This document shows, in pieces, positions 2,226 through 20,449 of a stretch of DNA of 20,449 nucleotides. The position numbers were made by a program, and so were the translations under genes. How positions within the stretch are numbered: the first letter of the stretch is position 1; each line of letters begins with the position of its first letter. The notes beneath the pieces were generated by a model. The model saw only the letters and a list, made by a program, of their open reading frames with translations. It made no database searches and had not been told where the DNA came from. Origin of the DNA: a virus; UHGV virus genome UHGV-0200630; one strand, given 5' to 3'.

Positions 2226-5200
2226 TTATTGTTGTTTACTGATAAAGTAAACTGCTCTTGCTGCGGTCGCATGATTCAAGTCAGCACCGTAACTCAAATC
2301 AACAGCTTGTCCCGCATAGATAATGCCTGTACCACCGTTTGAACCACTCATTGCACTGGTAACTGTTCTTACGATTTCTTGACCGTTCGACATATTAATC
2401 CATGCAGTTCCGTAGCCCCAAGCACCACCGGAATAAGTTCTGCCTGAAATCGAAAGGTTTGGAATAGAAATTACTCTGTTCCAGTTAACAGCAGGAATAT
2501 GAACTGTTGTCCACGGATCTATATGACCCATTTTGATAACGTCACCTTCAATTCTGTCAGCGTATACAGTTCCTGTGAAATAACCTGAACCGCCTCTGAT
2601 TTCACCTGCGAAATAACCAGAATCTGCTTGAATGTTACCTCTGATATTAACGTTTTGGAAAGAAGCCCAACCGTCTTTTCTGATTGTCCAACCTTGAGTA
2701 CCACCGGAAGGGAACCAGTTATCAGAAGATATTTCATAAGCAATCTGTGCTGAACCGATCTGAGCATTACCAATTTTCGCAGTAGTAATCGCACCGTTTT
2801 CAATCTTCGCGTTGTTAATAGCACCGTTTTGAATCTTAGCGTTGTTAATAGAAGCATCTGCAATCTGTGCTGAACCGATAGAAGCATTACGAATCATTGC
2901 AGAATCCATATAAACTCTGTTATCAGCGACCATAAACGGAGCAACAGCACCCGCAGGAGTATTGTTATTCGTTATAGCGATTTTATCAGCGTTAAAAACA
3001 ATACTAGACTGTTTTGAACCGTCAGGATTCTTATTAGCCAGCATACTGATACCAGCAACAACACCGTCGGCATTAGTCTGAACTGCCCATTTGCTATTAA
3101 TCGTTCCTGTTAAGTCGTCAACGCTTGCTTTTGATTCTTGACTAACTGTTGCAATAGCTGTGTTTGTTTCAGCTTTCAATTGATTAATTGAACTTGCGGT
3201 TGCTTGTCTATCATCAGCTTGAGTTTTTTCAACTTTCGTAATAGCCGAGTTAAGTTTTCCATCAAAGTTAGATTCTTGAATACTGATAGCCTGATTGATA
3301 GCGCCATTAGTTTCATTAGTAATCTGAGTATGAAGTTCGGTGTTTTTCGTCGTGATAGTCTGATTTAATTCAGTAGTAACTTTTTGCTCGGATGCTGTAA
3401 CTTTCGTATCAGTGTATTTGTTAGCGAGGTCTAATGCTTCATCGATAGCACCATCAACACGTTTATCCAAATCAAGCAAATCGTTTAACTGTTCTTTCAT
3501 ATCGTCAGTCCACGGAATATCCCATTTCATATCGATAAACTTCGATTCTGACCAAGTAATCTGGTCTTGTCCGAATACGTCATACCAAGCTGAACGAACA
3601 TAGAATTGACCATCTTCTAATGGAAAATTATCTAAGAACGGACTTGAACTTGAATAAACGTGAACAATTTCATTAAAACTCTGGTCTTTCGCAATATGAA
3701 CGATTGTGCCTTTGAAGTCAGGAACTTCAGGCTTATTATCGCGTGGGTCATTCCAAGAGCACATCAGCATTCCAGGACCATTCGAAGCTGTGAAACCTTG
3801 AATAGCAGGAGCTTGATTGTTCTTAACAGTAATAACAGCAGGATCTGACTTCATACCAGCGTGACCGTATGCAGTAACAGAAACTTTCAATTCACGACTC
3901 AGACCATTACCCAAGTTCATATTAAAGTCATATACAAAACCTAAGTCTTTAGTCTTGTAAATTACAGGACGCTGACCTTCAATTTTGATTTCGTAATATT
4001 GAAAAACTTCACCGAATGTCTGTAACGTGTCGTCAACATAGAATTTCTGTGCGCTCTGGTCGTCCCAGGCGAATTCAAATTGAGTCTTGTTAGTGGTGTA
4101 TTGATTTTCAACTGCGTTCACTAGGTGCAGTCCTGTAACGACTGGTAAGTTATACATAACCTCAGGGTTAACGTTATTGACATAAACCCAATCTGAACGA
4201 TACACAACACCAGAAGCACAAACACGAATATCAAATTTCTGATTAGGGTCAAGACTCATAATCAAGAAATAATCGCCTGATGTGAAACCTGCTTGAATCC
4301 AAGAGTTCTTACCAGCAAGACTATACTGAATATAATAACCTGCGCGATTATAATCAGGTTCAGACGTCCATTGAACTTTCAGAGTTCTTCCTAAAGCTGT
4401 TTCAGCAACTGCTTTAACTGTCAGATTCTTAGGAGCAATCAGAACAGATTTATTAGGAATGTTGCTTCCTGTGTTATCAGGGTCTTTCGCGTAGTCAAGA
4501 TTGGTATAAACTTCTTCGATATATTCAGAAGCAGTAATAGTAACGATACCAGCAGCACCTTTATTCATCGAACGATCGATATTAGTAATACGCCATAATG
4601 AATTCACAAGTTCCAGTTCAGAGAAATTAACTCTGATAACATCCCAGACCTGTGCGGTATAAGCATCAGCAGTTGAAAAACTAATAACTTGCTTTAACAG
4701 AGATTTGTTACGTTCGATTGAAGCAATTTTATCCAACTGAGATTTTGATTTCACGAATCTGTAACTGATATCTTTAGCGATAATACGTTTATCTTTCGCG
4801 ATTGTTCCATCATTTGTTACGTCAGACGGATAACGCAGAACTTGGTCAGAATAGTCAATCGACGGATCTTGATATTTCACGTTCAGAGTATTGTAATAAT
4901 TCTCAGAACCGCCATCGTTTAAGCTAACAGTACCAGCGTTAATATTATCTTCGTTGAAGTCATATTGAACAACATCAGGTCCATCGATTCTGCATGTTAC
5001 TTTACCGAAAGTCTCTGTGATAATACCGTTAAATGCACCTGCAAGCTGAGTTAAGTTTTCTTTGAATGAACCGTTCGGGTCAGTTGCACCATCAGAAAAT
5101 AAACTGTTCAGTTTTGCATATCGAGCAGCTTCTTTAAAACTATCAAGGTCGATTTTATCAATCTGAATTCCAAGACCGTATCTATCATTTGTTAGATAAT

Positions 5201-11854: not shown

Positions 11855-12067
11855 TTAGGCTTGTTTTTCGTGCAGGAACAGACGATCATCAGCACAAACT
11901 TTCCAATCGATATCAGCCCAAACGCGAGGAACGATAGCGCCTTTGTTACGGTAAGTTGTGTCGTCTAGGTCAAGAGCAAGACCTTCCCACTCAGCTACGG
12001 TTACAGCAGAGAAGTCACCAGAGATAACCTGACCTTCTTTAACAAGACCGGAACCGATAAACATCAT
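11855..12067 (-). CDS. Small capsid-associated ORF (70 aa) overlapping the capsid gene 3' end in the +1 frame; separate protein or frameshift extension
   Basis: ATGATG at 12067-12062 lies 29 nt inside the capsid ORF in the +1 frame; only a weak GGGCGGA SD. Shares the terminator at 11778-11803 with the capsid gene. Confidence 0.45.
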   Translation of the reverse strand: MMFIGSGLVKEGQVISGDFSAVTVAEWEGLALDLDDTTYRNKGAIVPRVWADIDWKVCADDRLFLHEKQA

Positions 12068-13760
12068 GTCCGCCCAGTTTGTTCAGGTCGTCGATGATAT
12101 AACCAGCAACACCAGCGTCACGCAGAGTGGTTTTCAAATCACCTTCAAGAGCAGCAGCCATCAAATATTTGAACTTGTCCATTGCTACGCCGTCGCCTTT
12201 AGCTTTAGCAGCTTCAACAACGAATTCTTTGTAGGTCATTCCCATCTGTTTTGCTACTAACTGAGCAACGATAGACTGAGGAGCTTTTGCGTCGGTAATA
12301 GAACCGAACATCAGACCTTCCAGTTTAGCGCGTGAGAAATTCACGATATGGTCAGAAATGAACGCACCCAGATTAGGCAGAGTCAACAGAGCTTGACGAG
12401 AAATCGGGTTACCACCAGTAAATGTCTTAGGCATAAACTGAATGTTTTCGAATTTGCTTTCGCCTTCTGGAGATTCACCGTTTTCATCAACGAAACCGAA
12501 TGCATCAACACTTGATTTTGTCTGCTTAGGAACAGAAATCGGAGTAGTCAGACCAGTCAGGAAGTTAACTCCCAGCTTATCAGCAACAGTGTCTTTCAAC
12601 AGCATTTCAACGAATGAATCATAACGCTGAACAGTTTCTTGTACTGCGGAAACAGTTGATACAGTGTTAATAGCGCGTTTGCCTTGCAGAGCACTAACTG
12701 GCATATAGATACCTTGAGAAACGTTAGCACCGCGCATCAGACGCTTACGGGACATTTCTTGAGTATATTCAGCAGCAGCACCGCGAACAGCTTTACCATT
12801 CATCATAGAGCGAACAGCATCGCCAAGGTCGAATTTATTTTCCAGAGTTTGTTTAGTATCTTTAGTCATGTTGCGAATCACCGTTGCAGATTTATTAGGT
12901 TTAATAGAGCGTTTGAATTGACGTGCGGTCATGCCTTTAGCGATAGCGCTTGCAACGTCTTTCTGTGCTACTTTGTAGCGTTGTGCGATTTCAAGAATTT
13001 CTTCCGCTTCTTCTTCGCGTTCTTCTTCTGTCAGTTCGTCACCAGCAGGAACAGCAGCAGGAGCGTCATCAGTTTTTTCAACAGCAGAATCACCAGCGTT
13101 TTCATTTTCAACGACTACTTCTTCCAGAATTTCTTCACGCTTTGCACGATCTTCATCGGACAGCATTTCAATTTCATCGATAGTCATTTCTGCCAGTTCA
13201 TCTTTAGTCATTTCATCAATACGTTTCATTCGAGTACCTTTGTTAAGTTTGTTTGTTGTATCTGTATTTAGTAGTCTTCCCAAACCGACTTTATCGTCAG
13301 CAGGAACAGTGACGAAAGAAATTTCATATGGTGCCCATTTCGTAACAATAAGATTGTCGCCTTCTAAGTGATATTCATTAATGTCATATCCGAAAGAGAT
13401 TTTACTAATTGTTCCTTCTTGAACTTTTGCACCGATTTCTTTAGCTAATTCACCGTGTTGACTGAATTGGACTTTTGCTCGTCCTATTTTGTCTTCATCG
13501 ATTCGAACAGAATCAGGAATAACGATTCCCAAGTGTTTATCAAAATCATGGTTAAACAGCAAAGCAGCACCGTTATTAATTCGGGTCAAGTCAGCGTTAT
13601 GTGAGCCGTCATGAACGAGAATTTCATTAACAGTAATGTTTTGACCGTATTCATCCTGAATCTGTCTTTCAACAGGAGTTTCAGAACTGAACGCAATTTC
13701 AAAAACACCATCAACAGAATCAATACCCTGAACTGTGTAATCGCGCTTAAGTTTTAGCAT
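12039..13760 (-). CDS. Prohead protease (HK97 gp4 / Peptidase S78-like) fused to scaffold-like acidic linker and putative HK97-fold major capsid domain (573 aa)
   Basis: N-terminal ~170 aa carry protease-like motifs (LLFNHD....GIV, ISFGY). Residues ~180-270 are an acidic, helical Glu-rich linker (delta/scaffold-like). C-terminal ~300 aa are of capsid-domain size, directly after portal and before a strong terminator. AGAGGA SD. Confidence 0.75.
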   Translation of the reverse strand: MLKLKRDYTVQGIDSVDGVFEIAFSSETPVERQIQDEYGQNITVNEILVHDGSHNADLTRINNGAALLFNHDFDKHLGIVIPDSVRIDEDKIGRAKVQFSQHGELAKEIGAKVQEGTISKISFGYDINEYHLEGDNLIVTKWAPYEISFVTVPADDKVGLGRLLNTDTTNKLNKGTRMKRIDEMTKDELAEMTIDEIEMLSDEDRAKREEILEEVVVENENAGDSAVEKTDDAPAAVPAGDELTEEEREEEAEEILEIAQRYKVAQKDVASAIAKGMTARQFKRSIKPNKSATVIRNMTKDTKQTLENKFDLGDAVRSMMNGKAVRGAAAEYTQEMSRKRLMRGANVSQGIYMPVSALQGKRAINTVSTVSAVQETVQRYDSFVEMLLKDTVADKLGVNFLTGLTTPISVPKQTKSSVDAFGFVDENGESPEGESKFENIQFMPKTFTGGNPISRQALLTLPNLGAFISDHIVNFSRAKLEGLMFGSITDAKAPQSIVAQLVAKQMGMTYKEFVVEAAKAKGDGVAMDKFKYLMAAALEGDLKTTLRDAGVAGYIIDDLNKLGGHDVYRFRSC

Positions 13761-15881: not shown

Positions 15882-17765
15882 TTATAATCCGAAACCACGA
15901 GGCTTATTAACTGGTCTGTTTCGTTTGATAATGTTTCGACGAGGTTCATGAGTTTGAATAACAGGAGAATTTGTTTCGTTTTGTTCTTCTGGCATTTCAA
16001 TATCAGATTTAGCAGCGAGTTTCCTCCACTCGTGAAATTTGATTTTCTCTAGAACTTGCAGACGCGCGCAATAACCGTAGTTAAAGCAGTCAAGACCTTC
16101 GTTACGAACACCGCCTTGTTTAATAACCCATCTAACAGTATTACCAGAGCGTTTTAATTCTTCGGACATAAGCTGTTCGCAGTAATCATCTGGAACATCA
16201 TCAGAGATTTCGACTCTGACTGGTGTATTTCCAGATTTCACGCTTCTGTTTAGCAGTTCACGAACTAAGTTTTTTCCTTGGTTTACACCAATCATATAAA
16301 GTTCATAACCACCGGTTTTCGTGATTTTCGTTGGAACATAAGGGGCATCAACAGAGCTGGCACCTTTAATTGCTTTCAGGTTTGTCCACTGAGAGCAGAA
16401 ACGATAGATTGTTTTAGTTGCTCGACCGTTTGAGCTATCGACGTTCACCCACGCTAAAGGAACCTTTCTTCCCAAAGCTGTTCTGAACGGTGCTTTAACG
16501 TATGCAAGAAGTTCTTTATAAGCAGGGGAATCGATAACCTCAGCGTTCATTGTCATAAAGCTACGATGTGCAAGAATATAAACGGTTCGTTCGTTGTGAC
16601 CCATCAAGGTTACTTCTAAACGGTCTTGCTGTTGGTCAACCCCAGCGGTTAAAAACAACGTGTCTTCTGGTATATTGCTGATGCCGATATTCGTCTTGAG
16701 TGTTTCTAATTTACTAACCTCAATGTCTTCGTTTAAATCATCAAACGGTAGACCAAGAACAGTGTTATAAAACGTTGACAAGCTGAACGTTTGCCATGCT
16801 TGCTTATAGTCTTCAACAACTGATTTGATAGAACTCATTGGGCTGTATAAACGACTTACGTGGAATCCAGCAATTCGACTTTCAGGTTGATGAATAATCC
16901 ATTCACCTTGTTTAATTGCTCGTGCTCGGTCGCCTTCAGAGAAAGCGTGATGACATTCAGGACATTCAATTCTGGCAGAGTTAGGATCAGGTAATGATTT
17001 ACCATCGATTTTTACCCAGTCGAATTTGATATTCTCCCACGTCAGTTCGTGCTTATGACCACATGTAGGACAGGGAACATGATACTTGCGCTTGTCGGAT
17101 GCTTCATACTGCGTGTGGATAGCACCGTATTTACTTGTAGGCGTCGAGCTAATGAAAACACGAGCGTCTTCACCGAACGTCGTAGCACGTTGTTCCGCGA
17201 TGATAATCGGGTTGCCTTCTTCTGTGTCTGTTTCAACTGCGTCAACTTCATCAAGCAACATCAGCGGAAGAGTTTTACCGCGTAAGTGAGAAGGGCTATT
17301 GAGCGACATGAAATACCAAAAGCCTCCAGCACGTAGCTGAATTTGACTGGTGTTATTCACTGCGTTTCTGTCGTTCTTGTCGGTGACGATTCGTTGCATT
17401 TCTTCCGATTCGTCAATCATTGGGCGAATCTTGCCTGATAGCCATTGAGTCGTCTCTTTACCGGTTGACTGCAAGACACCAGCGTTACCGGGATCAGTAG
17501 CAGACTTATAGAACAGAATTCCGTTCAAGATGGTTGTCTTGCCAATCTGGGCAGAAGTCTCGAAGACGATTTTCTTCTTACGTTCTTTAATGACGTCAAT
17601 CATGCCTTTCTGAAACTCAAACAGTTTCATCGGCTGCCCTGTATAAGGACCATCAGGGAATTTCAGGTACTGTTCGACCCACTCGGACGGAGTGTAGTCA
17701 GGAGGTGGCATTAAAAAGCGCTTTGCATTCTGTAAGATACTTTTCAGTTTATTTGAGTTTTTCAT
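15882..17765 (-). CDS. Terminase large subunit, lambda GpA family (627 aa)
   Basis: Walker A-like FETSAQIGKTT; zinc-ribbon-like CPTCGH...ECPECHH; LTAGVDQQQDRLEV and NEGLDCFNYGY match lambda gpA segments as I recall them. First gene of the leftward operon. Confidence 0.9.
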   Translation of the reverse strand: MKNSNKLKSILQNAKRFLMPPPDYTPSEWVEQYLKFPDGPYTGQPMKLFEFQKGMIDVIKERKKKIVFETSAQIGKTTILNGILFYKSATDPGNAGVLQSTGKETTQWLSGKIRPMIDESEEMQRIVTDKNDRNAVNNTSQIQLRAGGFWYFMSLNSPSHLRGKTLPLMLLDEVDAVETDTEEGNPIIIAEQRATTFGEDARVFISSTPTSKYGAIHTQYEASDKRKYHVPCPTCGHKHELTWENIKFDWVKIDGKSLPDPNSARIECPECHHAFSEGDRARAIKQGEWIIHQPESRIAGFHVSRLYSPMSSIKSVVEDYKQAWQTFSLSTFYNTVLGLPFDDLNEDIEVSKLETLKTNIGISNIPEDTLFLTAGVDQQQDRLEVTLMGHNERTVYILAHRSFMTMNAEVIDSPAYKELLAYVKAPFRTALGRKVPLAWVNVDSSNGRATKTIYRFCSQWTNLKAIKGASSVDAPYVPTKITKTGGYELYMIGVNQGKNLVRELLNRSVKSGNTPVRVEISDDVPDDYCEQLMSEELKRSGNTVRWVIKQGGVRNEGLDCFNYGYCARLQVLEKIKFHEWRKLAAKSDIEMPEEQNETNSPVIQTHEPRRNIIKRNRPVNKPRGFGL

Positions 17766-18345: not shown

Positions 18346-18583
18346 CGAATGGAGGCGATTTTTTAAATGTATAATAAATGCAAGTTTGTAGCTAAATTAA
18401 TTACACTAGATTTAAAATTGCAATATTAAATAGGAAGCAAAGTGAGGAAGTTCAGAATTAAGGAACTATTTCATACCTGCTAGTTTAGAGAGCCGACTAT
18501 TCATCGGATACTTATTTGATTGAAAGAAAAATTGAACAAGTGATATCATTCGGTTATTATTTTTTAGCAACAAAGGAGAAAGC

Positions 18584-18763
18584 ATGATTGCTAATGTGGT
18601 TTATAAAAACGGTGATGTTAAGACCGAAGAGTTAACAGTTGACGATGCCGCTGTTCGCTTAAAAACAGACTCAGACGTTCAAGCGATTGAATTTTTCGAA
18701 AGTGGATTAAACACTCTGCTTGAGAAAAAACTTGAACAAGCATTAGTGCTTGGTCTGAAATGA
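18584..18763 (+). CDS. Small hypothetical protein (59 aa)
   Basis: ATG at 18584 preceded by AAAGGAGAAAGC (SD with 5-6-nt spacer); followed 5 nt later by a strong terminator. Below the 60-aa cutoff of the ORF track. Confidence 0.5.
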   Translation: MIANVVYKNGDVKTEELTVDDAAVRLKTDSDVQAIEFFESGLNTLLEKKLEQALVLGLK

Positions 18764-18768
18764 CAAAA

Positions 18769-18791
18769 GGGAGCTTAGTGCTCCCTTTTTT
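18769..18791 (+). terminator. Intrinsic terminator
   Basis: Stem GGGAGC (18769-18774) / GCTCCC (18780-18785), loop TTAGT, followed by T6 (18786-18791). Confidence 0.8.
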
Positions 18792-19164
18792 ATTGAATTT
18801 CAAATGAGTAGATTGTAAACCACAGATACTGGAGGCATCTTTGGGGCGCAAGGAATCAAATAGTTGAGAACTTGATTACTCAGTTCTTTAGAACGATCTG
18901 CAAACAGCAGGGCGTACTTCCTGCGAAGCTGAAAGCGTAGAGTCAAAAGCAATAAGGTCGATAACGAAGCAGGAAGCATCAGGTGAACTTGATAACAGGG
19001 AATTGACTTGGAGTATCATTAGGTCAGTAGAAGCAGGGAGAAGCGAGGAGGGATGATGTAGCAGTCAATCATTACTATCATCAAAGATAGGGCTTGCCCG
19101 TTCGACGTAGCGATAGCGAAGGAGAACTCATTAACGTTATTTCAATTAATTATCGATCGTTATG

Positions 19165-19193
19165 TTTATTGATTGTCAGACGAACAGTATAAT
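19165..19193 (+). promoter_or_regulatory. Candidate sigma70-like promoter (TTTATT-N17-TATAAT)
   Basis: Perfect -10 TATAAT at 19188-19193, weak -35 TTTATT at 19165-19170 with 17-bp spacer. Would direct rightward transcription through the mini-hairpin cluster. Confidence 0.25.
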
Positions 19194-19249
19194 GCAGTTA
19201 TCCAGTAATCATTATTATCCAGATCTGAAAAATAATATTGTGAGCGTAG

Positions 19250-19400
19250 CGAACGCGCGAAGCGCTAATAATCTTTATCTAGAAACATCTAATCAGTAGC
19301 TAGTAATCAAGTTCGATAGTGTTATCTGTCGCGCTTCGCGCTAATGTTTATCAATTAGGGCTTCGCCCGCGCTTCGCGCAATCTGCTCGCTTCGCTATGT
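19250..19400. repeat. Cluster of GCGAAGC / GCTTCGC mini-hairpin motifs
   Basis: Read directly: gcGCGAAGCgc at 19257-19267; gcGCTTCGCgc at 19331-19341; ggGCTTCGCcc and gcGCTTCGCgc at 19358-19379; GCTTCGC at about 19390-19396. Additional GCGAAGC at 18923-18929. Confidence 0.75.
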
Positions 19401-19498
19401 TTTCCAGGTTTTGTACTGCTTCTATATCCTTCCAGTTCATCTTTATCCAATTGTTCTTATAGGGCGATTTTTTCTAGGGTCCATGCACTTCTCCGAGT

Positions 19499-19542
19499 CG
19501 CATCGATGCGTTATCGATGCGTTTTGATGTGCATCAATGCAC
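19499..19542. repeat. Operator-like array: 12-bp palindrome, 2 exact tandem 11-bp repeats, 14-bp inverted repeat
   Basis: CGCATCGATGCG palindrome 19499-19510; ATCGATGCGTT at 19502-19512 and again at 19513-19523; GTGCAT-CA-ATGCAC at 19529-19542. Confidence 0.8.
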
Positions 19543-19728
19543 CTGCTTTTCACTAAATTATTTTTCGGACTTTGTTTACACTTTCGGTGAACTATATAAA
19601 TATTAGTATGAACACAGAGAGTTTCTTCTTCCTCGTTATTTTCTCTCGTTTGTTTACTACTGACTTTATCCGTCATAAAATAAGATATAAGCAATTAGCT
19701 TAGTTCATTTAAAAATTCCTTAAGTTTA

Positions 19729-19754
19729 AAGCACTCTTCGGAGTGCTTATTTTT
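19729..19754 (+). terminator. Intrinsic terminator / attenuator upstream of the right-end genes
   Basis: 8-bp stem AAGCACTC (19729-19736) / GAGTGCTT (19741-19748) with TTCG loop, followed by ATTTTT. Confidence 0.75.
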
Positions 19755-19778
19755 CAATTCAATAAAAAAGGCAACCCC

Positions 19779-19937
19779 ATGAAATTTATACCTAACAAAT
19801 TCGAAATTGAATCTCGCTTAGACTCTGGTGAGACATTTCAGCAAATTGCAGAATCTAAACAAATGAATAAAGCAACGATGTATAATGCTTGCAAAAAACG
19901 TAATATCAGAACTCAACCAATCAATAAAGGCAAATAA
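19779..19937 (+). CDS. Small helix-turn-helix protein (52 aa)
   Basis: ATG at 19779 with weak AAGG SD 8 nt upstream; the ORF-track start at 19743 is a GTG inside the terminator hairpin. SGETFQQIAESKQMNKATMYNACKK is HTH-like. Confidence 0.5.
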   Translation: MKFIPNKFEIESRLDSGETFQQIAESKQMNKATMYNACKKRNIRTQPINKGK

Positions 19938-20391
19938 ATTGAATTTCAAATTTGCAGTCTTCGAAAATCTAGACAGAACAGTTAAAGCAAGCCTGAACAG
20001 AAATATTATCAAAGTTAATAGAATGACCAATAACAAAAACAGCCTGAAAGCTCTTGTTAAAGCTATAGATATTCATCGTAATGTTCGAGCTAAGATGTTA
20101 CAGAAGATTGAAAATGCTGTGACTGTAAAAAATATGCATAGCTTCGAAATCGGTACGACCGAAGTTAATAATCTGCCTGCAATCGTTGCTTATACAACCG
20201 ATAATGCTGTTATCGTTGCTTGTGAAATTAACGGTAAAAAGAACTCGTGGAAAGCTTTCTGTTCAGATCTAAGAATGCAGAAGATCAAAGACACCGAGCA
20301 GTTTGTTCAGATGTATACTGGTGAATTTATTGAAATCATCGAAAGTATTGAATTTCCGACTGAGCAGAGACTAAATAGCTGCGCGGAATAG
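19885..20391 (+). CDS. Hypothetical protein (up to 168 aa; start ambiguous: ATG 19885, TTG 19939 or ATG 20023)
   Basis: Long ORF in the +1 frame relative to the 52-aa HTH ORF, overlapping it. None of the candidate starts has a strong SD. Stop codon TAG at 20389-20391 lies inside the right ITR. Family not recognised. Confidence 0.45.
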   Translation: MLAKNVISELNQSIKANKLNFKFAVFENLDRTVKASLNRNIIKVNRMTNNKNSLKALVKAIDIHRNVRAKMLQKIENAVTVKNMHSFEIGTTEVNNLPAIVAYTTDNAVIVACEINGKKNSWKAFCSDLRMQKIKDTEQFVQMYTGEFIEIIESIEFPTEQRLNSCAE

Positions 20392-20448
20392 TAGATCACT
20401 GAAAGGGAACTCAGCCCGGATTGTGCGATCTGATCAATCGCCAAACCA
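20371..20448. repeat. Right terminal inverted repeat (78 bp), reverse complement of 1-78
   Basis: Read directly; one extra base (a, 20449) beyond the repeat at the right end. Confidence 0.95.
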
Positions 20449-20449
20449 A

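What the first reader, a model, noticed from the sequence alone, without database searches (positions are those of the whole stretch)
18792..19728. About 940-bp ORF-free region bounded by two intrinsic terminators
In an otherwise tightly packed genome with overlapping genes, nearly 1 kb carries no plausible ORF. It is delimited by terminators at 18769-18791 and 19729-19754 and has distinct composition: a purine/GC-rich 5' part, a polypurine run around 19030-19055 and a polypyrimidine tract at 19611-19670. This is the best candidate for an origin of replication, a partition/centromere-like site, or a long structured non-coding RNA.
Basis: seen in the sequence. Interest (0 to 1): 0.8.

Follow-up and report, generated by a model that had tools for sequence, protein, structure and literature searches.

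The report
Conserved non-coding control/origin-like region of prophage
The 1-kb gene-free stretch is real and under selection: it is the non-coding hub between the packaging genes and the early genes of a rare E. coli prophage, and its hairpin-studded symmetric core is a good but unproven candidate for the replication origin.

Summary
Window 18764-19778 is a 1015-nt gap between genes (next largest 238 nt), bounded by two strong terminators. It has no ORF conserved in relatives and no codon-like substitution pattern.

The window is a ~33-kb prophage-like element next to ybiT, found in 6 of 5,426 complete E. coli genomes. The region is conserved in three diverged lineages. The 19251-19550 core is 81-87% identical to L004/L006, above four-fold-site identity in terL (51-69%).

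It is a mosaic, not one RNA:
- conserved sigma-70-like promoters (19165-19193, 19653-19681, weaker 19575-19602) that run into the right terminator before the first early gene;
- three 11-bp-phased CGATGCG repeats;
- an invariant purine block;
- a dyad-symmetric core in which GCGAAGC mini-hairpin modules (83-fold enriched, compensatory stem changes) lie on opposite strands around an AT-rich spacer.

Distant relatives have unalignable long non-coding regions at the same position, with the same hairpin grammar.

Best reading (about 0.4): an early-control region containing the replication origin, resembling RSF1010 ssiA/ssiB and the transcription-dependent origins of lactococcal c2-type phages. 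A purely RNA-regulatory role is nearly as likely. A partition site or a single long structured RNA is not supported.

The parts
18765..18795 (+). Left intrinsic terminator (10-bp stem AAAAGGGAGC/GCTCCCTTTT, 5-nt loop, T-run). It ends the 144-aa/59-aa rightward operon. An A-run on the 5' side makes it look bidirectional.
   Evidence: I12; z -6.1; equivalent terminator in L004
18796..18949 (.). Lineage-specific spacer, about 46% identical to relatives. In L004/L006/L093 (and probably L096, where a 201-codon ORF sits at the same place) a leftward GIY-YIG/NUMOD3 homing-endonuclease plus lipoprotein cassette sits here instead.
19033..19053 (+). Purine block GCAGGGAGAAGCGAGGAGGGA. It is invariant in window/L004/L006 and is replaced by a different all-purine tract in L096. 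Function unknown.
19086..19140 (+). Conserved block upstream of Pmid. It contains the hairpin GGGCTTGCCC (19090-19099; GCTTGCCCGT is invariant in 4 lineages), TAGCGATAGCGAAGG and the TAACGTTA palindrome.
19165..19193 (+). Pmid: TTTATT-17 bp-TATAAT. The hexamers and spacing are conserved in all four lineages (TTTATC in the others) while the spacer sequence varies. The predicted start is near 19200, reading rightward.
   Evidence: (TATAATGC invariant)
19237..19275 (+). Left mini-hairpin module: ATT-GTGAGCGTAGCGAAC-GCGC(GAA)GCGC-TAATAATC, with the GAA loop on the + strand. GCGCGAAGCGCTAATAA is invariant in 4 lineages.
19266..19330 (.). AT-rich spacer of variable length (a ~22-26-nt indel in relatives, depending on the alignment). 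Its left part is among the least stable 40-mers in all four window-type sequences. Candidate unwinding element and centre of the dyad.
19331..19397 (-). Right mini-hairpin cluster, with GAA loops on the - strand: GCGC(GAA)GCGC at 19331-41, GGGC(GAA)GCCC at 19358-68, GCGC(GAA)GCGC at 19369-79 and GCGAAGC at 19389-95. Read on the - strand it is an inverted, diverged copy of the left module: ATT-GCGCGAAGCGCG-GGCGAAGCCC-TAATTGAT.
   Evidence: (I4, I8, I9)
19450..19466 (.). 17-nt invariant ATTGTTCTTATAGGGCG. On the - strand it reads TGGACC-16 bp-TATAAG (19483 to 19456), but it lacks the key T at -7. A similar CTAnTAAGAACAAT motif recurs in the DCP80 and L008 non-coding regions. Unexplained.
19499..19542 (.). 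Three phased repeats or palindromes: CGCATCGATGCG (19499-19510), the tandem 11-mer ATCGATGCGTT x2 (19502-19523) and GTGCATCAATGCAC (19529-19542). L096 keeps the tandem 11-mer as TGCGATGCGTT/TGCGATGCACTT. Candidate iterons or operators.
   Evidence: D12, I20; z -3.5
19575..19602 (+). P1: TTTACA-16 bp-TAAATA. It is promoter-like in all lineages, but the spacing is less constant.
19622..19652 (+). Pyrimidine/T-rich tract directly upstream of P2. Inferred to be UP-element-like.
19653..19681 (+). P2: TTTACT-17 bp-TAAAAT. The hexamers and 17-bp spacing are conserved in 4 lineages with unrelated spacers, and TTTGTTTAC is invariant. The predicted start is near 19688.
19708..19728 (+). Strongly conserved leader segment just 5' of the terminator. 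AAAATTCCTT is invariant in 4 lineages and the conservation continues through AAGTTT. Function unknown.
19729..19754 (+). Right intrinsic terminator: 8-bp stem, UUCG loop (GCAA in relatives) and T-run. It lies 25 nt before the first early gene, so every rightward transcript from the region meets it.
19779..19937 (+). Context: the first early gene, a 52-aa protein that looks like a small helix-turn-helix by inspection (no Pfam or PHROG hit). Its type changes together with the repeat type across lineages.

Best explanation
The region is the non-coding hub that separates the late (terL, head and tail, leftward) block from the early (rightward) block of a ~33-kb E. coli prophage-like element. It does two jobs.

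(1) Early transcription control. This part is shown in silico only.
- Conserved sigma-70-type promoters Pmid, P1 and P2 fire rightward.
- Every transcript must pass the strong terminator at 19729-19754 before reaching the 52-aa gene.
- The result would be nested non-coding leader RNAs of roughly 555, 145 and 67 nt, with early-gene expression gated by terminator read-through.
- The three 11-bp-phased CGATGCG repeats are binding sites for a lineage-specific early protein.

(2) Origin of replication. This part is inferred.
- The 19237-19397 core is an imperfect dyad.
- Two ~40-nt modules, each a conserved ATT-GTGAG-type leader followed by GC-clamped C(GAA)G mini-hairpins and TAAT, lie on opposite strands around a 65-nt AT-rich, easily melted spacer.
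- Transcription from Pmid through the core, possibly with binding at the repeats, opens the spacer.
- The very stable GCGAAGC-type DNA mini-hairpins then extrude on each strand, resist re-annealing and SSB coating, and mark sites where a primase or primosome (host DnaG or PriA, since no phage primase is recognisable) starts the two diverging leading strands.
- This resembles ssiA/ssiB of RSF1010 and the hairpins of the G4 complementary-strand origin.
For: Conservation beyond neutral:
- The core 19251-19550 is 81-87% identical to L004/L006. Four-fold degenerate sites of terL are 69%, 56% and 51% identical to L004, L006 and L096.
- Invariant runs across four lineages coincide with the promoter hexamers, hairpin i and the 17-mer.

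Promoters:
- Conserved hexamers and spacing with variable spacers.

Mini-hairpins:
- GCGAAGC occurs 6 times in 937 nt against once in the other 19.5 kb (83-fold).
- GC-rich stems of at least 4 bp closed on C(GNA)G occur only in this region of the window, and only in the equivalent regions of L004/L006, L008/L009 and DCP80. The same kind of hairpin was read by eye in the L013 region.
- Four of the seven CGAAG/CTTCG sites in the region extend to 4-bp stems. This was judged by inspection; chance is roughly 2e-6.
- Compensatory changes: GGGC..GCCC (window), TGGC..GCCA (L006), GCGC..GCGC (L096); and TCCGCCC..GGGCGGA (L008) versus TACGCCC..GGGCGTA (L009).
- The stems vary while the loop is constant, which argues for a folded hairpin rather than a duplex protein site.
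- The genuine RNA hairpins of these elements (the terminators) use UUCG, GCAA or GAAA tetraloops. The core hairpins use GNA triloops, which are the exceptionally stable DNA form (PMC13037366).

Strand polarity and symmetry:
- All GAAGC lie on the + strand left of 19260 and all GCTTC right of 19333.
- The GTGA(A/G)+hairpin module is found in inverted, facing pairs in the window type and in L008; L013 shows the same left +/right - polarity by inspection.
- L096 keeps a 119-nt dyad scoring 56 against a shuffle maximum of 44.
- The AT-rich spacer is a conserved stability minimum.

Context:
- No replication protein is recognisable in the element.
- Relatives keep an unalignable 1.3-1.8 kb non-coding region at the same position, each with its own repeat family.

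Precedents:
- Mini-hairpins occur at the G4/St-1/alpha3 origins and in RSF1010 ssiA (PMC13037366).
- c2-type phage origins are non-coding, lie between the early and late blocks, are flanked by early promoters, depend on a non-coding transcript, work without phage proteins and diverge into types (PMC7150918).
Against: - No experiment or read-depth data were available. Every function is inferred from sequence.
- No DnaA box is conserved.
- There is no similarity to any plasmid or phage DNA.
- No cognate initiator or primase was identified. The 246-aa early protein could not be modelled (pLDDT 51).
- Nearest-neighbour folding of the hairpin cluster is not better than shuffles (z between -0.4 and +0.5), so the hairpin case rests on motif statistics and covariation from only four lineages.
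- Hairpin iii is broken in L096.
- Hairpin strands are mixed in DCP80.
- In the window, DCP80 and L013, a perfect -10 promoter lies 45-80 nt upstream of a GTGA+hairpin module on the same strand. That layout fits an RNA cis-element equally well.
- The repeats sit 55-105 bp upstream of the promoters, which is not decisive for either operators or iterons.
Confidence: 0.4

Rival explanations
1. A purely transcriptional or RNA regulatory module with no origin function. Pmid, P1 and P2 make leader RNAs. The GTGA-box plus GC hairpin 45-65 nt downstream of Pmid acts in the RNA as a nut/put-like antitermination element, a pause site or a processing and stability element. It would decide whether polymerase reads through the 19729-19754 terminator into the early genes. 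The repeats would be operators of the small early protein or of the 144-aa GntR-like protein, making this the lysis-lysogeny switch.
For: - The promoter-leader-terminator-gene layout is conserved in all lineages, including L008 and L013.
- The promoter followed 45-80 nt later by a GTGA box and hairpin on the same strand recurs in the window, DCP80 and L013.
- The repeat type changes together with the type of the first early protein.
- Leader sequence next to the terminator is strongly conserved, with AAAATTCCTT invariant.
- No CI-like repressor gene was found, so an unconventional immunity mechanism is plausible.
Against: - GNA triloops are not notably stable in RNA, whereas the clear RNA hairpins here use tetraloops.
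- Half of the hairpins are on the other strand, where no convincing sigma-70 promoter exists (the candidate lacks the T at -7).
- No N- or Q-like protein was recognised.
- There is no Rfam match.
- The alifold covariation term is unfavourable (+1.75).
- This reading does not explain the dyad symmetry or the AT-rich centre.
Confidence: 0.3
2. A terminase recognition and cleavage region (cos or pac with TerS binding sites) for the lambda-GpA-type terminase encoded next door.
For: - terL (GpA_ATPase/GpA_nuclease) starts 1 kb away.
- In L008 and L013 the non-coding region abuts an HNH endonuclease followed by terL.
- Repeated motifs such as TAAGAACAAT are shared between lineages.
Against: - terS (phrog_57) lies 4-5 kb away, on the far side of the oppositely oriented early module. 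In lambda-like systems cos adjoins the small-subunit gene.
- The repeats differ completely between lineages whose TerL proteins are 75-88% identical.
- Hairpin triloops are not a known cos feature.
- The shared-motif counts are small.
Confidence: 0.08
3. One long structured non-coding RNA spanning the region between the two terminators.
For: - Whole-region folds are more stable than shuffles (z -3.2 on the + strand and -2.6 on the - strand, from 20 shuffles).
- A terminator lies at the 3' end.
Against: - There is no Rfam hit, even with permissive thresholds.
- No conserved promoter lies at the left end, and the first 150 nt are replaced by a reverse-oriented gene cassette in relatives.
- Purine bias flips at about 19260-19300.
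- The fold stability comes from left-right complementarity that is not conserved in L004.
- Covariation is confined to local hairpins.
Confidence: 0.07
4. Decayed coding sequence or a neutral spacer left by gene loss in a degenerating prophage. A variant of this rival is a plasmid-like partition site.
For: - The prophage copies carry IS insertions and frameshifts.
- The outer parts (18950-19031, 19054-19085) are only 41-55% identical to relatives.
Against: - The core is conserved well above four-fold-site identity.
- There are invariant 17-nt runs across four lineages.
- Motif enrichment and compensatory changes are present.
- There is no reading-frame signal.
- No ParA/ParB genes were seen among the element's called genes, and the element integrates by a serine recombinase.
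Confidence: 0.05

Closest known systems
ssiA/ssiB single-strand initiation signals of the RSF1010 (IncQ) oriV
   Same: Two ~40-nt modules lie on opposite strands in inverted orientation next to repeats and an AT-rich segment. Each module folds around a C(GAA)G mini-hairpin (CCGAAGG in ssiA, per PMC13037366).
   Different: There is no sequence similarity. No RepB'-type primase, RepA helicase or RepC initiator is recognisable in the element. Several hairpins occur per side. The element is a prophage, not a plasmid. Priming has not been tested.
Replication origins of lactococcal c2-type (Ceduovirus) phages
   Same: A non-coding region lies between the late and early gene blocks, carries early promoters and is predicted to make a non-coding transcript ending at a terminator. 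Its sequence diverges into unalignable types among otherwise related phages. c2 origins work without phage proteins, and no dedicated replication protein is recognisable here (PMC7150918).
   Different: The host and phage lineage are different and there is no sequence similarity. c2 origins are not described as mini-hairpin dyads. In the window type, two rightward genes sit between terL and the region. Function is untested here.
Complementary-strand origins of G4, St-1 and alpha3 (DnaG-primed hairpins)
   Same: GCG(N)NAGC-type, exceptionally stable DNA mini-hairpins occur at a place where priming would be needed (PMC13037366).
   Different: Those are origins of single-stranded phages with three defined stem-loops on one strand. 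Here the genome is double-stranded, the hairpins are on both strands, and the loops are triloops.
N4 virion RNA polymerase hairpin promoters
   Same: Short GC stems (4 bp in the window, 5-7 bp in relatives) carry a 3-nt GAA/GNA loop next to a conserved flanking sequence.
   Different: No N4-type RNA polymerase gene exists in the element; the largest proteins are tail proteins. Window stems are 4 bp, shorter than the 5-bp stem described for N4 promoters.
Lambda nut (boxA-boxB) and HK022 put antitermination sites
   Same: A conserved box plus a small GC hairpin with a purine loop lies about 50 nt downstream of an early promoter, with a terminator further downstream.
   Different: The loop is a GAA triloop, not the GAAAA pentaloop. 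No N-like protein or put-like double hairpin is present. Copies also occur on the untranscribed strand.

Membership tests
Any Rfam RNA family (including ColE1 RNAI, phage sRNAs, riboswitches) | A covariance-model match at or above the gathering score | tested here: not met
   There were no hits at gathering threshold in the window or in six relatives. The best permissive hit was TarB at 29.9 bits against a gathering score of 80, and it covers only the terminator.
Intrinsic (rho-independent) terminator | GC-rich stem-loop followed by a T-run, with the stem maintained in relatives | tested here: met
   Both 18765-18795 and 19729-19754 qualify. The right one shows a compensatory A-T to G-C change and a UUCG to GCAA loop swap.
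Sigma-70 promoter | -35 and -10 hexamers with 16-18 bp spacing, conserved while the spacer varies | tested here: met
   Met for Pmid (19165-19193) and P2 (19653-19681) in four lineages. P1 is weaker. The - strand candidate (19483 to 19456) lacks the T at -7. Activity was not tested.
DnaA-dependent theta origin (oriC-like or iteron plasmid) | Conserved DnaA boxes (TTATNCACA) | tested here: not met
   Only one 1-mismatch box was found in the window (19215). None was found in L004, L006, L096, L008, L013 or DCP80.
Iteron-type origin | Phased direct repeats next to an AT-rich unwinding element, plus a cognate initiator gene | tested here: inconclusive
   Three phased repeats (19499-19542) and a conserved low-stability spacer are present. 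No initiator was identified. The 246-aa early protein has no family hit and gave a poor model.
ssi-type priming signals (RSF1010 ssiA/ssiB, G4-type) | Roughly 40-nt hairpin modules with GNA/GNNA mini-hairpins on opposite strands | tested here: met
   See, with the definition from PMC13037366.
ssi-type priming signals (RSF1010 ssiA/ssiB, G4-type) | Primase- or PriA-dependent priming on the single strand, and presence of a cognate primase | not testable with these tools
   No primase gene is recognisable in the element. Activity needs an M13 rescue or an in vitro assay.
c2-type transcription-dependent phage origin | Non-coding region between the early and late blocks, flanked by early promoters, giving a non-coding transcript | tested here: met
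   Position and promoters are shown. The transcript is only predicted. Features are as described in PMC7150918.
c2-type transcription-dependent phage origin | Supports plasmid replication without phage proteins | not testable with these tools
   This needs a cloning experiment. No plasmid in PLSDB carries similar DNA.
N4-type hairpin promoter | A cognate single-subunit virion RNA polymerase encoded by the phage | tested here: not met
   No such gene appears among the called genes of the ~33-kb element.
Lambda-type cos site | Lies immediately upstream of the small terminase gene | tested here: not met
   terS (phrog_57) is at L014 6132-6680. That is 4-5 kb away, beyond the early module.
Partition (parS/centromere) site | Adjacent ParA/ParB-type genes on an extrachromosomal replicon | tested here: not met
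   No Par genes were seen in the annotated or called genes. The element is integrated next to ybiT and carries a serine recombinase.
Protein-coding gene (missed, or in an alternative frame) | A conserved ORF, 3-base periodicity of substitutions and indels in multiples of three | tested here: not met
   PGAP annotates nothing here in 6 genomes.

The most novel reading that the evidence does not exclude
A double-stranded temperate phage that encodes no recognisable replication protein may replicate from an origin built as a dyad of GCGAAGC-type DNA mini-hairpin modules on opposite strands. These modules would extrude from an AT-rich, transcription-opened spacer and recruit the host priming machinery. 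That would be an ssiA/ssiB-like, leading-strand-only start site in a prophage. The same hairpin grammar is kept across relatives whose origin sequences are otherwise unalignable.
Probability: 0.3. Interest if true: 0.7.

Novelty: new variant of a known kind. Interest (0 to 1): 0.55.

Why it matters
If the core is an origin, it would show that the exceptionally stable DNA mini-hairpin is a reusable building block of dsDNA phage origins. Until now this motif has been linked to a handful of ssDNA-phage, IncQ and N4 initiation sites. It would also give a compact, host-only E. coli replicon to test.

If the core is instead an RNA control element, it would be an unusual way of gating early genes, possibly tied to prophage immunity given that no classical repressor gene was found.

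Either way, the region defines a recognisable signature: a long gene-free hub with GNA-triloop hairpins, lineage-specific repeats and a promoter-terminator leader. That signature marks a poorly studied group of enterobacterial phage-like elements that carry defence cargo (a retron-type RT and a TIR effector).

Tried and rejected
- **Rfam and tRNA scans.** Rfam at gathering and permissive thresholds and ARAGORN found nothing, in the window and in relatives.
- **DNA similarity.** Searches against phages (near and distant) and plasmids found only a 38-nt terminator look-alike in KVP40-type vibriophages.
- **Species-representative genomes.** A terL-protein scan and a DNA-pattern scan of the genome-contig collection both returned nothing.
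- **Cross-type homology.** An nhmmer profile of the window-type region against the L008, L013 and DCP80 regions found no homology.
- **Link to the retron.** The RT (retron Ec67 family) lies more than 1 kb beyond the region, is absent from the L004-type prophage that keeps the region (L093), and is absent from the window itself. My recollection that this was the historic Ec67 prophage was wrong: that one is 186-related (PMC6868368).
- **Hidden gene.** Rejected.
- **DnaA boxes.** The TTATCC motifs seen by eye are not conserved.
- **Leftward promoter.** TGGACC-16-TATAAG is conserved but lacks the T at -7, so I do not count it.
- **T4 middle-promoter grammar.** It is present in the relatives' regions but not conserved in the window type.
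- **Long-range pairing of the purine block with downstream pyrimidine tracts.** Not conserved in L004.
- **The 16-nt inverted repeat bracketing the region (18784-18799 / 19756-19771).** The right arm is not conserved in relatives. It is left unexplained.
- **Thermodynamic test of the hairpin cluster.** Not significant.
- **Structure prediction of the 246-aa early protein.** pLDDT was 51, so no fold search was run. Sequence searches gave only coiled-coil noise.
- **A 16-mer scan for the relatives' candidate RNA.** Mostly chance hits.
Full report
**What the window is.** The - strand carries a phage structural block:
- a lambda-GpA-type large terminase (15882-17765);
- a portal gene;
- a fused S78 protease-capsid gene;
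- a T4 gp37-like fibre with an S74 chaperone domain;
- a tail-tip protein.

An identical terL is found inside E. coli chromosomes. In E. coli 2021CK-01361 the element lies next to ybiT and ends with a 501-aa serine recombinase. It also carries a lysozyme, a TIR effector and a 'retron Ec67 family' RT. Only 6 of 5,426 complete E. coli genomes hold the region in question: two have identical copies and four have copies about 74% identical. G+C is about 38-39%. The copies carry IS elements. The last 73 nt of the window are an IS end that truncates the 246-aa early gene, and the window's capsid gene has a 1-nt indel.

**Checking the observation.**
- The gap between the 59-aa gene and the 52-aa gene is 1015 nt. 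The next largest gap is 238 nt.
- Nothing inside behaves as coding. The largest ORF (83 codons, TTG start, - strand) is absent from relatives, mismatches are spread evenly over the three phases, and indels are mostly 1, 2, 7, 8, 11 or 26 nt.
- Both terminators are strong (z about -6). The right one keeps its stem through a compensatory change.
- The purine-to-pyrimidine switch is real: 0.58 versus 0.40 purine on the + strand.

Only 18796-18949 is lineage-specific. In L004, L006 and L093 that position holds a leftward GIY-YIG/NUMOD3 homing endonuclease and a lipoprotein gene, and L096 has a 201-codon ORF at the same place.

**Conservation.** Four lineages could be aligned: window, L004, L006/L097 and L096.
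- terL four-fold degenerate sites are 69%, 56% and 51% identical to L004, L006 and L096.
- The region as a whole is 73-75% identical to L004/L006, and the 19251-19550 core is 81-87% identical.
- Against L096, sub-blocks range from about 41% to 79%.
- Runs that are invariant in all four lineages are: GCTTGCCCGT, TATAATGC, GCGCGAAGCGCTAATAA, TGTCGCGCTT, ATTGTTCTTATAGGGCG, TTTGTTTAC, AAAATTCCTT and the terminator tail.

The region is therefore under selection, and the selected pieces are short and discrete.

**Transcription signals.**
- Pmid (TTTATT/TTTATC, 17 bp, TATAAT; 19165-19193) and P2 (TTTACT, 17 bp, TAAAAT; 19653-19681) keep their hexamers and spacing in every lineage while the spacers differ. 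That is the expected signature of real promoters.
- P1 (19575-19602) is weaker.
- All three point rightward, and all transcripts meet the 19729-19754 terminator 25 nt before the first early gene.
- L008 and L013 have the same promoter, short leader, terminator and small-gene layout.
- A conserved leftward candidate (TGGACC, 16 bp, TATAAG) lacks the T at -7, so I do not count it.

Transcription itself could not be tested.

**Repeats.** CGCATCGATGCG, the tandem 11-mer ATCGATGCGTT x2 and GTGCATCAATGCAC cluster at 19499-19542, and no other site with at most one mismatch exists in the window. L096 keeps the tandem 11-mers in altered form. L013 has seven GCAACGTTGC(AC) copies and L008 about four GAAATTGCATTTC copies at the equivalent place, counted by eye. 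The repeat family changes together with the family of the first early protein. This suggests, by inference only, that an early protein binds the repeats.

**The hairpin core.**
- GCGAAGC occurs six times in the 937 nt and once in the other 19.5 kb.
- GC stems of at least 4 bp closed on C(GNA)G occur only here in the window. They also occur only in the corresponding regions of L004/L006, L008/L009 and DCP80, which has nine in 1.2 kb. The L013 region shows the same kind of hairpin by inspection.
- Stems differ between copies and lineages while the loop stays fixed, and there are compensatory double changes. This points to a folded hairpin rather than a duplex binding site.
- The GAA loops are on the + strand to the left of about 19260 and on the - strand to the right of 19333.
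- Each side is a ~40-nt module: ATT-GTGAG..., then hairpin(s), then TAAT. L006 carries two nearly identical copies facing each other. L008 has the same arrangement with its own sequences, and L013 shows the same polarity by inspection.
- L096 keeps a 119-nt dyad scoring above all shuffles.
- The spacer between the modules is AT-rich, variable in length and a conserved stability minimum.
- Nearest-neighbour folding does not single out the cluster. The argument therefore rests on statistics and covariation.

**Comparison with known systems.**
- A 2026 review of mini-hairpin DNA states that GCGAAGC/GCGNNAGC motifs are rarer than expected in genomes. It records them at the primase site of the G4, St-1 and alpha3 origins, in RSF1010 ssiA (CCGAAGG) and in N4 virion-polymerase promoters (PMC13037366).
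- The genuine RNA hairpins of these elements (the terminators) carry UUCG, GCAA or GAAA tetraloops. The different loop type in the core is a modest argument for a DNA-level role.
- Lactococcal c2-type phages place their origin in a non-coding region between the early and late blocks. It is flanked by early promoters, depends on a non-coding transcript, works without phage proteins and diverges into types (PMC7150918). The present region matches that description in position, promoters and type divergence.
- The element has no recognisable replication gene.
- Against an origin: no DnaA box is conserved, no initiator or primase was found, and no plasmid carries similar DNA.

**Rivals.**
- The main rival is an RNA-level control element. 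A perfect -10 promoter is followed 45-80 nt later by the GTGA box and hairpin on the same strand in the window, DCP80 and L013, with a terminator downstream. That layout resembles a nut- or put-type antitermination site. I rate it only slightly below the origin reading, and the two are not mutually exclusive.
- A cos/pac site is less likely because terS lies beyond the early module.
- One long structured RNA is not supported.
- Neutral decay is contradicted by the conservation.
- A partition site has no supporting genes.

**Verdict.** The finding is real and the region is functional, conserved and unannotated. It is best described as the early-control hub of a rare E. coli prophage, with a mini-hairpin dyad at its centre that is the best candidate for the origin. 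The mechanism is inferred, not shown. I rate it a new variant of a known kind, with interest 0.55.

Noticed in passing
L008 4015-3991 (-) and 5192-5216 (+); L013 3675-3651 and 5138-5114; L029 (DCP80) 827-803 and 975-951: Six promoters in the relatives' non-coding regions fit the phage T4 middle-promoter grammar exactly: a MotA box wwwTGCT(T/A)(T/C)A, 12 bp, a perfect TATAAT, and in four of the six a TGn. They occur nowhere else in those loci. They are not conserved in the window type. They might mean that these elements respond to T-even infection, or they might just be extended -10 promoters with a conserved upstream site.
   Followed up: partly
L029 = GenBank PQ671644.1 (Escherichia phage DCP80), 1 to about 26 kb versus the rest: The deposited 141-kb 'Straboviridae' record looks chimeric. 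Its first ~26 kb encode a relative of this element (terL 52% identical, with a 1.26-kb non-coding region upstream). The rest is T4-like (motA, rIIA, ndd).
   Followed up: partly
L008 about 4250-4460 (- strand), L013 about 4240-4440, also L087 and L098: A ~200-nt block (AACTCAAGGGTT...AGCCCTTTATG...GGTAGTTCTCCTGTTG...GACCCGGCTTCGGCCGGGC) is far better conserved than its surroundings and shows three compensatory pairs. It is a candidate small RNA with no Rfam match and no counterpart in the window type.
   Followed up: partly
window 20377-20449: The end of a repeated IS-like element, matched in 1,148 of 5,426 complete E. coli genomes. It truncates the 246-aa early gene to 168 codons, and the window diverges from L003/L010 at 20376.
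   Followed up: partly
window 11855-13760 (- strand): The protease-capsid fusion gene carries a 1-nt indel relative to L019 (573 + 70 codons instead of 634). It is either a pseudogene or a sequencing error.
   Followed up: partly
L014 6132-6680 (terS) versus L014 12247-14130 (terL): The small and large terminase genes are separated by about 5.5 kb that holds the oppositely oriented early module and the non-coding region. In L008 and L013 an AP2-HNH endonuclease gene sits directly upstream of terL.
   Followed up: partly
L004 4388-5246; L093 13243-13857: A free-standing GIY-YIG/NUMOD3 homing endonuclease plus a small lipoprotein gene is inserted at the left edge of the non-coding region in three lineages. 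It is absent from the window.
   Followed up: partly
L003 941-2710; L028 14557-16326 and 17692-18588: Defence cargo lies beside the early genes: a retron Ec67-family RT with a C-terminal extension and a CAP12/Pycsar-type TIR protein. In L093 the RT is replaced by three unrelated genes.
   Followed up: no
window 18784-18799 and 19756-19771: A 16-nt perfect inverted repeat (CCTTTTTTATTGAATT / AATTCAATAAAAAAGG) brackets the whole region in the window. The right arm is not conserved in relatives. It may be a trace of the loss of the endonuclease cassette, or chance.
   Followed up: partly
window 18520-18549: The best sigma-70 match in the neighbourhood (TTGAAA, 18 bp, TG-TATCAT; 10 of 12 matches) lies in the 238-nt gap upstream of the 59-aa gene.
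   Followed up: no
window 18756-18793: The left terminator and its flank match a 38-nt intergenic stretch of KVP40-type (T4-like) vibriophages at 94.7% identity. This was the only hit of the region in the phage collection.
   Followed up: no
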